Shown here: positions 9,545-11,767 of the stretch, piece after piece
How positions within the stretch are numbered: the first letter of the stretch is position 1
Layout of the letters: every line of letters begins with the position of its first letter
NCBI GenBank assembly: GCA_026023565.1
Contig: JAPETS010000006.1
Coordinates: forward strand, 186,001-250,000
Length of the DNA: 64,000 nt
Direction of reading: 5' to 3'
Origin: Cirrosporium novae-zelandiae
Taxonomy: Eukaryota
Program-made: the position numbers and the translations under genes
The notes under the pieces: generated by a model
Told to the model about the DNA's origin: nothing
Databases searched by the model: none
What the model saw: the letters and a program-made list of their open reading frames with translations, nothing else

Positions 9545-10339
9545 TTAGCCCAAAGCACTTGTATCACCGTTTTGAATATTTAGATATAGCGATTTCCAAT
9601 GGTCCACCTCTGCTTCTAGGTCTTCAATCTTCTTCGACATCTCTTCGAACTTTTCGACTTTCCTTGCACGAGACTTCCGAGCAGCTTCGGTATTCCTGGC
9701 TCGCTTCAATGCCACTGGGTCACCTTTGTCATACCTGATTGGTGGTAGGGGCTTGTCTCGACGGCGGGAGTTGACACCAGTTATGGACGAATGACGACCA
9801 CCTGTAGAGGCTGGGGATTGACCAGGAGACGACCTCTTTCGCATCATAACTGGGGCAGTCGAGGATTTTGGCATGGAAGAGATCGTAGCCAATTTCTTAA
9901 GATCATCGGCTGAGGAATCATTCTGCACTGGGAATAGCGGAGGCCAAGATTCTTCACCGAAGCTGTTTTCCGGGCCGAAGAGAGGAGAAGTCTCGTAACT
10001 ACTAGTTTGATCGGGAGTGTCAAAAACTGAAGGAGTGCTGAAGTTGGTCAAGGTTGTGGACGGTGGAGCAGAAGTATGGTCGAAGGTAAGTTCTTGTGGA
10101 GAGACTGTGCCAGGTTCATGACCTCCACTGTTGATGGAGGTGAAGTATGTGAATTCACTGTTAAACAGACCGAGATCGTCATCGGCACCGAGGCCGAAAC
10201 CGACCGGCGAGAGGTCGAACATGTTCTCCATGTCTAATATGTGAATCGGCTTTAGTTTTTGTTCAATTAATATACTGGACAGATGGGATAATGCTTTACC
10301 CTTGATATTGGAAGTAGACAAATTTCTTCGATGATTCAT
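9545..10339 (-). CDS. cpcA: Cross-pathway control bZIP transcription factor (CpcA/CPC-1/Gcn4 orthologue), AUG-initiated form about 242 aa, intron 10299-10234
   Basis: C-terminal bZIP DPVALKRARNTEAARKSRARKVEKFEEMSKKIEDLEAEVDHWK; central TVSPQEL and SAPPST, WPPLFP motifs; first in-frame AUG at 10339; uORF-bearing leader. Confidence 0.95.
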   Translation of the reverse strand: MNHRRNLSTSNIKGKALSHLSSILIEQKLKPIHILDMENMFDLSPVGFGLGADDDLGLFNSEFTYFTSINSGGHEPGTVSPQELTFDHTSAPPSTTLTNFSTPSVFDTPDQTSSYETSPLFGPENSFGEESWPPLFPVQNDSSADDLKKLATISSMPKSSTAPVMMRKRSSPGQSPASTGGRHSSITGVNSRRRDKPLPPIRYDKGDPVALKRARNTEAARKSRARKVEKFEEMSKKIEDLEAEVDHWKSLYLNIQNGDTSALG

Positions 10340-10604
10340 GTTTTGGTGGTGGTTTTCAGGTGTATTGGGGCTGCTAAACAAAGGAACAGGTGGACGAGTT
10401 CGATGTTGATGAAACTGGTGCGATACAGAGGTAGGAGGCGTATATGACCAATGAGAGAACTGGTGAAGAGCCGAAGACGAAGCGCTACGAGACCCGTTGG
10501 ACTGAACTCTCTTCTGCACTCTAGGATTGCGTCCGGTGGAAAACAGGGTAGAGCGTCGACGATGAGTCTGATGACCCGCTAAGGGGGATCCAAGAGGAAA
10601 GTTA

Positions 10605-10772
10605 TTAAGGGCTATATGAGAGGTCGCCCGCTGTCGCTCGCTCGGAGGTTGCGTTTGCTGAGGAAAGAGCACGAAGTCTTCGGCGGGTGTTTGAGTCGGC
10701 AGCTGTTGCGAATGGTTCGGCTGCGTATTCAAGGCCAACAAGGGCTGGGAGGATGGGGGTTGAGGAGGCCAT
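10605..10772 (-). promoter_or_regulatory. cpcA uORF2 (55 aa, MASSTPILPA...RRRLRALSS...DLSYSP*)
   Basis: Strong-context AUG (AAA ATG G), out of frame with CpcA. It is the only AUG between uORF1 and the CpcA AUG. Confidence 0.85.
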
Positions 10773-10990
10773 TTTAGTTGGTTGTCCGTGGTGAACGACG
10801 TTAAGTCGTTTTGCTGAATGGTTGCGGTTGAGTAAGAACTTGGGTTGCTAAAAGCAGGTCCGAAGTCCAGAGTATCCTGTGAGGGAAGCTCTGAAGAGTT
10901 GTTGAATGATGGATTCACGTGAGTAAACTCGGTGTTTCCTATCTTGTCTGATTGCTGGAGACAAGAAGAAGGGTGAAGAGAGCAAGAAGC

Positions 10991-11005
10991 TTAGAAGACA
11001 GCCAT
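10991..11005 (-). promoter_or_regulatory. cpcA uORF1 (ATG GCT GTC TTC TAA; MAVF*)
   Basis: Short AUG ORF at the 5' end of the leader, matching the reinitiation-permissive uORF1 of Gcn4-type mRNAs. Confidence 0.85.
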
Positions 11006-11760
11006 TTGGACAAATATCTCTTTGATTTAATGTATTGTTTTGGATGAATAGTGGGTGTGAGATGAAGGAGAAAAAAAAAAGAGGAAAAAAATCTTGGGAA
11101 ATATGGAAAAGTGGGAGATCTTAAGTGAAATTTTGGTAGGTGTGTAGTGTGTGTGCGTGAGTAGTGTGGGTGGGTGAGATTAGGGGGGGGGGGGTTACAG
11201 GAGGTCCAAGCCACCATCACAAAGCAGCAACGGAATTGAAGAAACATTGGAAAGGGAAAATTAAAGACTCACACAAATTAGTTGAAACAACAGCAGTTTA
11301 ACTCTCATTGTTGCCTTGAATTTCTGTGTGCTTTTGTGCACTGCCCAGATGCACAATGTCCAATAATCCAGTGATAAGCTACAGGTGTCGAGGCAGCAAC
11401 TGTTTTACTCGAGGATTCTAATTCCTTTGATAATTAATTATTAATATTAATTCTTTGAGCATTATCATTTATTACTTGGTAATTACTGTACAGTACATGT
11501 ACATACCACCGTTGAGGTTTTCAATTCAGATCTTAGTGCGTGCATGTGAAGAGAAAGGTCTCTCCGATTGGATAACCCCACATTTTATGCCCTAAGTACC
11601 TAAGTACCTAGGTATAATCATTGTCCTCGAGTATAAATAATTTGGAGAATAATTATTCCCCTTTTCATACGTACTTGTATACTAAAGCAAATTAATAGTT
11701 AATTCAATTGAGTTCAACCGTTTCTCTAACCACCTAATTACCAAGTACATGGGCAAAAGA

Positions 11761-11767
11761 TGAGTCA
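11761..11767. promoter_or_regulatory. Gcn4/CpcA response element TGAGTCA upstream of cpcA
   Basis: Perfect TGA(C/G)TCA about 750 bp upstream of uORF1. Autoregulation through such sites is established for Aspergillus cpcA. Confidence 0.55.

What the first reader, a model, noticed from the sequence alone, without database searches (positions are those of the whole stretch)
10340..10990. 217-codon AUG-free in-frame extension of CpcA with strong-context near-cognate starts
Seen: the CpcA frame is open for 651 nt upstream of the AUG at 10339, with no in-frame AUG. In-frame near-cognate codons lie upstream of uORF2: GUG 10918, CUG 10870 (ACT CTG G), AUU 10819 (ACC ATT C) and ACG 10789 (ACC ACG G). 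They would add 193, 177, 160 or 150 aa, including motif-like EDFVLFP and RPPVPLFS. Established: N-terminally extended, non-AUG-initiated CPC-1 isoforms that bypass uORF2 have been described in Neurospora and Pezizomycotina. Gene finders miss or mis-model this, and the function of the extension remains poorly understood.
Basis: partly seen in the sequence, partly recalled or inferred. Interest (0 to 1): 0.75.

Follow-up and report, generated by a model that had tools for sequence, protein, structure and literature searches.

The report
Non-AUG extension of fungal CpcA regulator
The amino-acid-starvation regulator gene of this fungus carries the long, start-codon-free upstream reading frame and the unusual non-AUG start sites already described for Neurospora and its relatives, so it is a clear new example of a known arrangement rather than a new one.

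Summary
Observation confirmed. On the minus strand the bZIP gene's frame is open and ATG-free for 217 codons (10990..10340) above the AUG at 10339; 19 of 20,000 shuffles do as well. An identical database protein is named for Cirrosporium novae-zelandiae, class Xylobotryomycetes.

The locus has every sequence feature of the Pezizomycotina cpc-1/cpcA leader of Ivanov et al. 2017: uORF1 (MAVF), a 55-codon uORF2 in the -1 frame, and in-frame CUG 10870, AUU 10819 and ACG 10789 above uORF2. In 39 non-redundant relatives these codons are fixed as codons, while other conserved residues of the extension vary synonymously. The extension evolves under purifying selection in the CpcA frame (dN/dS 0.23, against 1.27 and 2.64 in the shifted frames).

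That codon is AUA or AUU with A at -3 in 39 of 39 leaders and marks where frame conservation begins.

No RNA, ribosome or peptide data exist for this organism, so translation is inferred by homology. Verdict: new member of a known kind, moderate-to-low interest.

The parts
10991..11005 (-). uORF1: ATG 11005, MAVF, stop TAA 10993-10991. It lies in frame with CpcA, and its stop codon bounds the extension.
   Evidence: The same MAVF uORF1, also in frame, occurs in L050, L053, L064, L072, L076 and L078. An ATG sits in this column in 39 of 39 aligned leaders.
10340..10990 (-). 217-codon open, ATG-free extension of the CpcA frame (the finding).
   Evidence: Translated in the CpcA frame it matches an HMM of relatives' extensions (window excluded) at E=3.2e-31; the other two frames give E=0.2 and 0.49.
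10940..10942 (-). AUA, context gacaagATAg (A at -3, G at +4), would add 201 aa. Conserved AUA/AUU column and 5' border of frame conservation.
   Evidence: ATT in 27 and ATA in 12 of 39 leaders, with A at -3 in 39 of 39. Between this codon and CTG there are 0 in-frame stops, against 20 and 23 in the other frames; upstream of it the counts are 5, 6 and 9.
10916..10918 (-). Weak context (C at -3, A at +4).
   Evidence: No GTG was seen at this place in the printed alignment, but this was not counted.
10868..10870 (-). CUG (equivalent of NCC6), gatactCTGg, A at -3 and G at +4, would add 177 aa.
   Evidence: CTG in 38 and TTG in 1 of 39 leaders. Leu is invariant in 25 of 25 proteins. Other conserved Leu columns use 3 to 5 codons.
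10817..10819 (-). AUU (equivalent of NCC7), gcaaccATTc, A at -3, would add 160 aa.
   Evidence: ATT 31, ATA 6, ATC 2 of 39. It lies exactly 30 nt above the ACG in 39 of 39.
10787..10789 (-). ACG (equivalent of NCC8), ttcaccACGg, A at -3 and G at +4, would add 150 aa. It is 17 nt above the uORF2 AUG.
   Evidence: ACG with A at -3 and G at +4 in 39 of 39 leaders. Present in all 60 loci that reach the site. Other conserved Thr columns use 4 codons.
10605..10772 (-). uORF2: ATG 10772 (actaaaATGg), 55 codons plus stop, in the -1 (+2) frame. It overlaps the extension, including DFVLFP.
   Evidence: The uAUG2 lies 14, 17 or 20 nt after the ACG, always in frame +2, in 39 of 39. dN/dS in its own frame is 1.25, against 0.43 in the CpcA frame.
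10661..10678 (-). DFVLFP, the most conserved patch of the extension.
   Evidence: D105, F106, V107 and L108 are invariant in 25 proteins. Codons vary synonymously: Val uses 4 codons and Leu 3.
10376..10396 (-). RPPVPLF, the second conserved patch, about 13 codons above the AUG.
   Evidence: P200, V202, P203 and F205 are invariant. Arg uses 6 codons, Pro 4 and Leu 5.
10337..10339 (-). First in-frame AUG (main start), context caaaacATGa.
10234..10299 (-). Probable 66-nt intron (GTAAAG...TAG). It is in frame and stop-free, so the frame is kept whether or not it is removed.
   Evidence: Read from the sequence. At the homologous place a 60-nt segment is present in contigs L050, L064 and L072 and absent from contigs L053, L076 and L078. 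Splicing in this organism was not observed.
9545..10233 (-). Rest of the CpcA coding sequence, with the bZIP region at 9602..9709 and stop TAA 9547-9545.
   Evidence: The only confidently predicted structure is the helix at residues 425-474.

Best explanation
This is the cross-pathway-control gene (cpc-1/cpcA, the GCN4 homologue) of a Pezizomycotina fungus, with the leader typical of that subphylum.

Shown by the sequence: a short uORF1, a 55-codon uORF2 in the -1 frame, and a 217-codon ATG-free continuation of the CpcA frame. That continuation holds four conserved near-cognate codons above uORF2: AUA 10942, CUG 10870, AUU 10819 and ACG 10789.

Inferred by homology with Neurospora crassa cpc-1 (Ivanov et al. 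2017):
- Most ribosomes translate uORF1, resume scanning, and either reinitiate at uORF2 (amino acids plentiful) or pass it and start at AUG 10339 (starvation).
- A minority start at the near-cognate codons and read straight through the uORF2 AUG in the CpcA frame.
- This makes CpcA isoforms about 150 to 201 residues longer, whose synthesis escapes inhibition by uORF2.

The extension is predicted to be disordered and carries short conserved motifs (SFTTDNQ..W, DFVLFP, RRxST, QNPRV, RPPVPLF). I infer that it modifies activity, partner binding or stability of the activator. Its function is not known.
For: Identity:
- bZIP_2 at residues 428-463.
- 736 relatives at E<=1e-3, many covering more than 90% of the 481-codon frame including the extension.

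Architecture: uORF1 is 5 codons and uORF2 is 56 codons, both counted with the stop. The ranges in Ivanov 2017 are 3-6 and 35-70. Only three ATGs occur in any frame from 11005 to 10339.

The frame is selected in relatives:
- In 39 non-redundant leaders (the window plus 38 metagenome loci, all under 95% identical), indels between AUW and CTG keep the frame in 38 of 39, over lengths of 66-81 nt.
- In-frame stops from AUW to ACG number 0 in about 2,025 codons, against 75 and 53 in the other two frames.
- Pooled dN/dS over 11 independent pairs of relatives is 0.23 in the CpcA frame for the stretch from the uORF2 stop to PVPLF, against 1.27 and 2.64 in the shifted frames. In the uORF2 overlap it is 0.43, against 1.27 and 1.25.

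The start codons are selected as codons:
- ACG in 39 of 39, with A at -3 and G at +4 in 39 of 39.
- In the protein-guided alignment, CTG in 37 and TTG in 1 of 39.
- Other invariant Thr and Leu columns use 3 to 5 synonymous codons.

ATG avoidance: 34 of 34 leaders have exactly one ATG (the uAUG2) between uAUG1 and PVPLF, where composition predicts 176.9 in total.

The window's own extension matches the relatives' HMM only in the CpcA frame, at E=3.2e-31.

Transcripts of relatives contain the sites:
- Contigs L053, L076 and L078 lack the intron and begin 40 nt above uAUG1.
- 16 of 24 short whole contigs begin 39-63 nt above uAUG1.

Experimental basis in N. crassa (PMC5487733, section 7 read): NCC5 to NCC8 initiate in vitro, and ribosome footprints between uORF2 and the AUG lie in the CPC1 frame.
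Against: - There is no RNA, ribosome-profiling or peptide evidence for this organism, and its transcription start is unmapped.
- In N. crassa in vivo, reporter activity from the near-cognate starts was under 1% of that from the AUG, so the isoforms may be rare.
- Above the ACG the substitution-based coding signal is weak: dN/dS 0.60 in frame, against 0.69 and 1.12.
- The window has no close relative (best 39-43% amino-acid identity), so selection was measured in relatives, not on its own branch.
- One related contig (L028) has the frame broken inside the extension. Its 96-98% identical relatives L060 and L029 are intact.
- Relatives are phylogenetically related, so counts such as 39 of 39 overstate the number of independent events.
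Confidence: 0.8

Rival explanations
1. The extension is translated, but ribosomes enter it by +1 (or -2) frameshifting from uORF2 rather than by starting at non-AUG codons.
For: uORF2 is in the -1 frame in the window and in 39 of 39 leaders and overlaps the extension. Ivanov et al. name this as a possible additional mechanism (Discussion).
Against: - Conservation reaches above the uORF2 AUG, where a frameshift product would have no need of it. There are 0 in-frame stops from AUW to ACG, against 75 and 53 in the other frames, and indels preserve the frame.
- ACG, CTG and AUW are fixed as codons with fixed contexts.
- The conserved patch inside uORF2 (DFVLFP) varies synonymously, so it is not a nucleotide-level shift signal.
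- Removing NCC5 to NCC8 removed specific products in vitro in N. crassa.
Confidence: 0.07
2. The open frame is not translated to any useful degree in this fungus. It persists as an inherited feature or because of constraints on the RNA leader.
For: There are no expression data for this organism. In vivo NCC-derived reporter activity in N. crassa was under 1% of AUG-derived activity. dN/dS above the ACG is not clearly frame-specific.
Against: - The window's extension keeps all conserved motifs and matches the relatives' HMM at E=3.2e-31 in one frame only, despite only about 40% identity to its nearest relatives.
- A 651-nt frame free of stops is found in 53 of 20,000 shuffles.
- Relatives show dN/dS of 0.23 with synonymous variation at conserved residues, which RNA-level constraint does not predict.
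- No Rfam family matches the leader.
Confidence: 0.1
3. The extension is ordinary coding sequence reached from a conventional AUG in an unrecognised upstream exon, as many automatic gene models draw it.
For: Several database proteins begin with unrelated AUG-initiated N-termini joined to the extension (P0011, P0056, P0059 and P0085).
Against: - These N-termini are unrelated to one another.
- In the window the frame is closed by uORF1's stop 49 nt above AUA 10942, and the next in-frame codons upstream hold further stops (11029, 11182, 11197).
- The intron-less contigs of relatives are colinear with genomic contigs from 40 nt above uORF1 and hold no in-frame ATG.
- The model for this very gene (P0003) starts at the uORF2 AUG.
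Confidence: 0.03

Closest known systems
Neurospora crassa cpc-1 and the Pezizomycotina cpc-1/cpcA leaders analysed by Ivanov et al., mBio 2017 (PMC5487733)
   Same: - Two uORFs of the stated sizes, with uORF2 in the -1 frame.
- No in-frame stop or AUG between the conserved near-cognate codons and the main AUG.
- CUG, AUU and ACG in the NCC6, NCC7 and NCC8 columns, with A at -3 and G at +4 at the ACG.
- The same two conserved patches (DFVLFP inside uORF2, and RPPVPLF just above the AUG).
- Purifying selection in the main frame.
   Different: - The lineage: by the name on an identical protein, the source is Xylobotryomycetes. The main-text passages read do not name this class among the species analysed, and the species list in the supplements could not be opened.
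- Here uORF1 is in frame with CpcA and its stop closes the frame. In N. crassa uORF1 is in another frame and the frame stays open to the mRNA 5' end.
- The paper calls conservation of NCC1 to NCC5 sporadic. In the sample here an AUA/AUU with A at -3 is present in 39 of 39 leaders.
Aspergillus cpcA (A. nidulans, A. fumigatus)
   Same: Two uORFs and a long leader. The A. fumigatus TSS lies at -855/-858 (passages of PMC12810187). Aspergillus proteins align through the extension (P0025 and P0119).
   Different: Autoregulation through CpcA-binding sites is reported for A. fumigatus. Here only one TGAGTCA lies upstream (11761-11767), and such sites are not enriched in the window.
Saccharomyces cerevisiae GCN4
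   Same: A bZIP activator controlled by delayed reinitiation. cpc-1 uORF1 and uORF2 act like GCN4 uORF1 and uORF4.
   Different: According to Ivanov et al., GCN4 and other Saccharomycotina homologues lack the in-frame extension.
Mammalian C/EBP alpha/beta isoforms (analogy drawn by Ivanov et al., Discussion)
   Same: A bZIP factor made as several N-terminal isoforms, by alternative starts combined with a short uORF and sensitive to eIF2 phosphorylation.
   Different: The N-terminal regions are unrelated, and most C/EBP starts are AUGs. No functional difference between isoforms has been shown for CpcA.

Membership tests
cpc-1/cpcA/GCN4 bZIP activators | C-terminal basic-leucine-zipper of GCN4 type | tested here: met
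   Pfam bZIP_2 E=3e-6, 27.7 bits against a cut-off of 22.3, residues 428-463. KRARNTxAARKSR is invariant in 25 proteins. A helix at 425-474 is predicted with pLDDT 86-96.
Pezizomycotina cpc-1 leader with NCC-initiated extension (Ivanov 2017) | Two AUG uORFs: uORF1 of 3-6 codons and uORF2 of 35-70 codons (stop included), with uORF2 in the -1 frame | tested here: met
   uORF1 is 5 codons and uORF2 is 56 codons, in frame +2. The arrangement is the same in 39 of 39 aligned leaders.
Pezizomycotina cpc-1 leader with NCC-initiated extension (Ivanov 2017) | Main frame open, with no stop and no AUG, from above the uORF2 AUG to the main AUG | tested here: met
   217 codons, 10990..10340. 19 of 20,000 shuffles are both open and ATG-free.
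Pezizomycotina cpc-1 leader with NCC-initiated extension (Ivanov 2017) | Conserved in-frame CUG, AUU and ACG above uORF2, the ACG with A at -3 and G at +4 | tested here: met
   10870, 10819 and 10789 fall in the conserved columns. Spacings of 51, 30 and 17 nt lie within the ranges seen in relatives.
Pezizomycotina cpc-1 leader with NCC-initiated extension (Ivanov 2017) | Extension conserved at the amino-acid level, under purifying selection in the main frame | tested here: met
   The window's extension against the relatives' HMM gives E=3.2e-31 in the main frame only. Relatives show dN/dS of 0.23, against 1.27 and 2.64 in the shifted frames. Selection on the window's own branch could not be measured because no close relative was found.
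Pezizomycotina cpc-1 leader with NCC-initiated extension (Ivanov 2017) | The mRNA includes uORF1 and the near-cognate codons | not testable with these tools
   No genome-wide or RNA data could be had for this organism. In relatives, intron-less contigs start 39-63 nt above uAUG1.
Pezizomycotina cpc-1 leader with NCC-initiated extension (Ivanov 2017) | Ribosomes actually initiate at the near-cognate codons and longer isoforms are made | not testable with these tools
   Shown only for N. crassa, in vitro and by ribosome profiling.

The most novel reading that the evidence does not exclude
The extension has a fourth, deeply conserved start codon that also defines its true 5' end. This is an AUA or AUU with an invariant A at -3, lying 66-81 nt above the CUG (window AUA 10942, adding 201 aa).

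Evidence:
- In 39 of 39 non-redundant leaders this codon is present.
- Indels below it keep the frame in 38 of 39.
- In-frame stops below it number 0, whereas above it the three frames carry stops alike (5, 6 and 9) and spacing to uORF1 shows no frame preference (mod 3: 19, 11, 9).
- Five divergent lineages that have lost the AUU at -30 nt still carry an in-frame AUW with A at -3, 108-150 nt above the ACG. Positional homology there is not established.

Ivanov et al. described conservation of the N. crassa NCCs other than NCC6 to NCC8 as sporadic, although N. crassa NCC5 (AUU) initiated in vitro. If the AUW is that codon's equivalent, the longest isoform would be an ancestral, selected product across Pezizomycotina.
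Probability: 0.5. Interest if true: 0.45.

Novelty: new member of a known kind. Interest (0 to 1): 0.3.

Why it matters
CpcA/CPC1 is the master activator of the amino-acid starvation response in filamentous fungi. The extension nearly doubles the protein and escapes the uORF2 brake, yet its function is unknown.

This locus shows that the arrangement, down to the individual start codons, is kept in a fungal class (Xylobotryomycetes) that the passages of the 2017 study read here do not name; the species list could not be opened. It also shows that the public gene model for it is wrong.

The comparison made here used metagenome contigs, not the GenBank sequences of the 2017 paper. It reproduces that paper's main conclusions and points to one more conserved start codon that could be tested directly in Neurospora or Aspergillus.

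Tried and rejected
- Whole genome of the window: none is held.
- Sequencing runs: no RNA holder is listed. One DNA run holds the stretch and may be the source.
So I could not check whether this lineage, or the AUW column, appears there.
- Single-sequence search of 1.84 billion representatives with the 217-residue extension: only 14 hits at E<=1e-3. Two (P0123, P0124; 3,909 and 3,669 aa, several stretches each) look like compositional matches and were not followed.
- Pfam on the extension alone: 0 families at E<=10.
- Rfam on 10200..11300: only a chance mir-981 match, 14.8 bits against a gathering score of 51.
- AlphaFold2 with the 25-row alignment: no fold in the extension, pLDDT under 50 almost throughout. 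This fits disorder but gives no functional lead, so no fold search was run.
- Earlier findings of this scan: none.
- Literature on the extension's function after 2017: searches found only the 2017 paper, its commentary and citing reviews among the held papers.
- Autoregulatory CpcA sites: TGASTCA occurs 4 times in the window against 10.7 expected. One lies 756 nt above uAUG1, which is not evidence of anything on its own.
- Ribosome queuing as the reason for the invariant 30-nt AUU-to-ACG spacing: considered. The spacing is equally explained by ten conserved codons without indels, and the ACG-to-uAUG2 spacing (14, 17 or 20 nt) does not fit a one-ribosome offset. Left as a note.
- ATG depletion in the window alone: not significant. 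It becomes clear only across loci.
Full report
**1. What is in the sequence**

The gene lies on the minus strand. The stop-to-stop frame 9545..10990 has 481 codons and ends in a bZIP domain (Pfam bZIP_2, residues 428-463, E=3e-6). Its first in-frame ATG is at 10339. The 217 codons above it (10990..10340) hold neither a stop nor an ATG.

The leader contains only three ATGs in any frame between 11005 and 10339:
- uORF1: ATG 11005, MAVF, stop TAA 10993-10991.
- uORF2: ATG 10772, 55 codons, stop 10607-10605, frame +2 relative to CpcA.
- The main AUG at 10339.

uORF1 happens to be in frame with CpcA, and its stop is the codon that closes the extension.

In-frame near-cognate codons above uORF2 are AAG 10945, ATA 10942, GTG 10918, CTG 10870, ATT 10819, ACG 10801 and ACG 10789. 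A at -3 together with G at +4 is found at ATA 10942, CTG 10870 and ACG 10789. ATT 10819 has A at -3 and C at +4. GTG 10918 has C at -3 and A at +4.

**2. More than chance?**

- In 20,000 dinucleotide-preserving shuffles of the 651 nt, the frame is open in 53, and open with no in-frame ATG in 19.
- The other two frames have 7 stops each.
- ATG scarcity in the window alone is not significant: 1 observed against a mean of 2.98, and 3,231 of 20,000 shuffles have 1 or fewer.

**3. Whose gene, and how it is annotated**

A search with the whole 481-codon frame found 736 proteins at E<=1e-3 among those of 264-842 residues. The top hit (P0003, 377 aa, 100% identity over 72% of the query) is named by its source 'MAG: hypothetical protein [Cirrosporium novae-zelandiae]'. 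That species belongs to the class Xylobotryomycetes in Pezizomycotina.

P0003 begins MASSTPILPALVGLEYAAEPFATAADSNTRRRL, which is the uORF2 peptide. It then continues in the CpcA frame at PGHQTHRRRS, and it keeps the 66-nt segment 10299..10234. So the public model starts at the uORF2 AUG and reaches the CpcA frame through an invented intron.

**4. The known system**

Ivanov et al. 2017 (PMC5487733; I read the abstract and sections 6, 7 and 8) analysed 100 Pezizomycotina cpc-1 homologues. They reported:
- uORF1 of 3-6 codons and uORF2 of 35-70 codons.
- An in-frame extension with no stop between uAUG2 and the main AUG in every case.
- Three conserved near-cognate codons: NCC6 CUG (77 of 100), NCC7 AUU (74 of 100) and NCC8 ACG (98 of 100, with A at -3 and G at +4).
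- dN/dS of 0.35 for the extension.
- Initiation at NCC5 to NCC8 in vitro, and in-frame ribosome footprints in vivo in N. crassa.
- In vivo reporter activity from the near-cognate starts below 1% of that from the AUG.

They state that the function of the extension is unknown, and they name frameshifting from uORF2 as a possible alternative. Two searches for later work on the extension listed only that paper, its commentary and citing papers.

**5. Protein-level comparison**

I aligned the window's frame with 24 of the 120 listed proteins. These were chosen for high coverage and varied source names; 96 were not used. Invariant columns inside the extension are L41, F66, T68, D69, W74, D105-F106-V107-L108, R157, P200, V202, P203 and F205. 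L41 is the CUG codon and T68 is the ACG codon. I58 (the AUU codon) is Ile in 21 of 25.

The N-termini above these columns are unrelated among gene models, as expected if gene finders invent AUG starts.

**6. DNA-level comparison with independent data**

A scan of metagenome contigs found 596 pattern matches. Of these, 306 were confirmed relatives and the best 80 were kept.

- 68 of the 80 have an ORF matching an HMM of the extension. The other 12 were not examined.
- In 66 of the 68, the extension and the main ORF lie in one open frame of 307 to 552 codons. L018 and L019 stop after the extension, near the intron.
- 53 loci have ACG in the NCC8 column.
- Of the other 15, seven are cut by a contig end before that point.
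- L028 has the frame broken inside the extension, while its 96-98% identical relatives L060 and L029 are intact.
- The remaining seven (L011, L012, L013, L014, L016, L062, L063) are divergent. They still show caccACGg or cacgACGg followed by an ATG 20 or 23 nt later in frame +2. They lack the AUU at -30 nt, which matches the minority clade described in the paper.
- So the ACG is present in all 60 loci that reach the site.

For 50 loci plus the window a uORF1 was also found. Collapsing at 95% identity left 39 leaders, including the window. These were aligned as nucleotides without regard to frame. Results:

| Feature | Result in 39 leaders |
|---|---|
| uAUG1 | ATG in 39 |
| ACG column | ACG in 39, all with A at -3 and G at +4 |
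| AUU column | ATT 31, ATA 6, ATC 2 |
| CUG column | CTG 38, TTG 1 |
| AUU to ACG spacing | 30 nt in 39 |
| ACG to uAUG2 spacing | 14, 17 or 20 nt, always frame +2 |

By nearest named proteins, these leaders include relatives of Pleopsidium (88%), Xylariaceae (86%), Colletotrichum (82%), Metarhizium (about 68%) and Paecilomyces (59%), so several classes are represented (names).

**7. Amino-acid selection against codon selection**

- Conserved residues of the extension vary synonymously across the 39 leaders: V107 uses 4 codons, L108 uses 3, R199 uses 6, P200 uses 4 and L204 uses 5.
- The start-codon columns do not vary: T68 is ACG in 39 of 39, whereas T295 and T315 each use 4 codons. L41 is CTG in 37 and TTG in 1.
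- Pooled Nei-Gojobori estimates over 11 independent pairs of relatives (78-97% identical; the window is not among them) are shown below.

| Segment | dN/dS, CpcA frame | dN/dS, +1 shift | dN/dS, +2 shift |
|---|---|---|---|
| uORF2 stop to PVPLF | 0.23 | 1.27 | 2.64 |
| uORF2 overlap | 0.43 | 1.27 | 1.25 (uORF2's own frame) |
| Main ORF | 0.12 | 2.20 | 2.94 |
| 50 codons above the ACG | 0.60 | 0.69 | 1.12 (weak signal) |

- The window's leader, translated in three frames and scored against an HMM of the relatives' extensions with the window excluded, gives E=3.2e-31 in the CpcA frame and 0.2 and 0.49 in the others.
- In 34 of 34 leaders where the PVPLF motif could be located, the only ATG in any frame between uAUG1 and PVPLF is the uAUG2. 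That is 34 observed against 176.9 expected from composition. Five leaders without a regex match were dropped.

**8. A fourth conserved codon**

The nucleotide alignment shows one more invariant block, G-N-C-A-N-N-A-T-W. In the window this is gacaagATAg at 10942. The codon is ATT in 27 and ATA in 12 of 39 leaders, with A at -3 in 39 of 39.

- Its distance to the CUG varies from 66 to 81 nt but is a multiple of three in 38 of 39. The exception, L031, is a local misalignment of the CTG column.
- Its distance from the uORF1 stop (39-69 nt) is spread over the three residues modulo 3 as 19, 11 and 9.
- In-frame stops number 0 between AUW and CTG (20 and 23 in the other frames; about 936 codons) and 0 between CTG and ACG (55 and 30; about 1,089 codons). 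Between the uORF1 stop and AUW the three frames carry 5, 6 and 9.
- In the protein alignment the column is Ile in 15 of the 17 rows that reach it.

So frame conservation starts at this codon. The paper says NCC1 to NCC5 are only sporadically conserved, yet N. crassa NCC5, an AUU, did initiate in vitro.

Caveat: my sample is the 80 loci most similar to the window and is phylogenetically structured.

**9. Transcript evidence in relatives only**

Three contigs of 1.73-1.77 kb (L053, L076, L078) lack a 60-nt GT..AG segment that is present in the contigs L050, L064 and L072 of the same group. All three begin at the same base, 40 nt above uAUG1. They behave as spliced mRNA.

The missing segment ends just before an ACATG, as does the window's candidate intron 10299..10234. 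That candidate is 66 nt, in frame and free of stops.

Of 24 short whole-contig loci, 16 begin 39-63 nt above uAUG1 and one begins at 101 nt. Published starts are 703 nt above the AUG in N. crassa and -855/-858 in A. fumigatus (passages of PMC12810187).

By homology, the window's mRNA should start near 11045-11070, below the out-of-frame ATGs at 11247 and 11217. This is inference: no RNA run for this organism is listed.

**10. Nature of the extension**

Pfam finds nothing in the extension. AlphaFold2 with the 25-row alignment predicts only the bZIP helix 425-474. The extension has pLDDT under 50 apart from small rises at residues 71-80, 101-110 and 200-205, which are the conserved motifs.

I read it as a disordered region with short linear motifs. 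That DFVLFP and PVPLF resemble the hydrophobic motifs of acidic activation domains is my recollection, not a test.

**11. Mechanism and rivals**

Best reading, confidence 0.8: GCN4-like delayed reinitiation through uORF1 and uORF2 governs the AUG form. A minority of ribosomes start at AUA 10942, CUG 10870, AUU 10819 or ACG 10789 and read through the uORF2 AUG in frame. After removal of the intron this gives isoforms of about 443, 419, 402 and 392 residues, against 242 for the AUG form. The sequence features are shown here; initiation itself is inferred from N. crassa.

Rivals:
- Frameshifting from uORF2 (0.07). It does not explain the codon and frame conservation above uAUG2.
- No meaningful translation in this fungus (0.10). 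This is hard to square with retention of every motif at about 40% overall identity.
- A hidden upstream AUG exon (0.03). The in-frame uORF1 stop and the colinear mRNA-like contigs of relatives argue against it.

**12. Verdict**

The phenomenon is already described, so this is a new member of a known kind in a lineage that the passages of the 2017 paper read here do not name. It comes with a corrected gene model and a lead on a fourth conserved start codon. Interest 0.3.

Noticed in passing
window 10605..10772 and 10234..10299 (protein P0003): The public protein model identical to this gene starts at the uORF2 AUG. It carries 33 uORF2 residues, then jumps into the CpcA frame at PGHQTHRRRS, and it retains the probable 66-nt intron. 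The annotation is wrong at both places.
   Followed up: yes
window 10234..10299: The candidate intron is in frame and stop-free, so retaining it would only insert 22 residues. A homologous 60-nt intron is absent from three mRNA-like contigs of a relative.
   Followed up: partly
window 10991..11005: uORF1 (MAVF) is in frame with CpcA and its stop closes the extension. The same peptide and frame occur in L050, L053, L064, L072, L076 and L078. In other relatives uORF1 sits in any of the three frames.
   Followed up: partly
window 10787..10819 and relatives: The AUU-to-ACG spacing is exactly 30 nt in 39 of 39 leaders, which is about one ribosome footprint. It may simply reflect ten conserved codons without indels. 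A queuing role is speculation.
   Followed up: no
window 11761..11767: A TGAGTCA (Gcn4/CpcA-type site, consensus recalled from memory) lies 756 nt above uAUG1. There are only 4 such sites in the 64-kb window against 10.7 expected, so it is not significant on its own.
   Followed up: partly
protein P0004 (named for Pleopsidium flavum): This model begins MDKIDS, that is, with a Met two residues before the conserved Ile of the AUW column. The 88% identical contig L001 has no ATG there. Whether that species has a real in-frame AUG could not be checked without its DNA.
   Followed up: no
L028:1-260: This contig changes frame inside the extension, between HRRHSST and QNQRV, relative to its 96-98% identical relatives L060 and L029. 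It is either an assembly error or a broken allele.
   Followed up: partly
L062 and L063: These divergent relatives have an ATG-started ORF of 19 codons above the ACG that may be an unusually long uORF1, and an in-frame ATG 136 nt above that ATG, probably outside the mRNA.
   Followed up: no
window 11030..11216: A pyrimidine-rich tract with a run of C at about 11190-11200 lies just above uORF1. It is the likely core promoter and start region, but it is unmapped.
   Followed up: no
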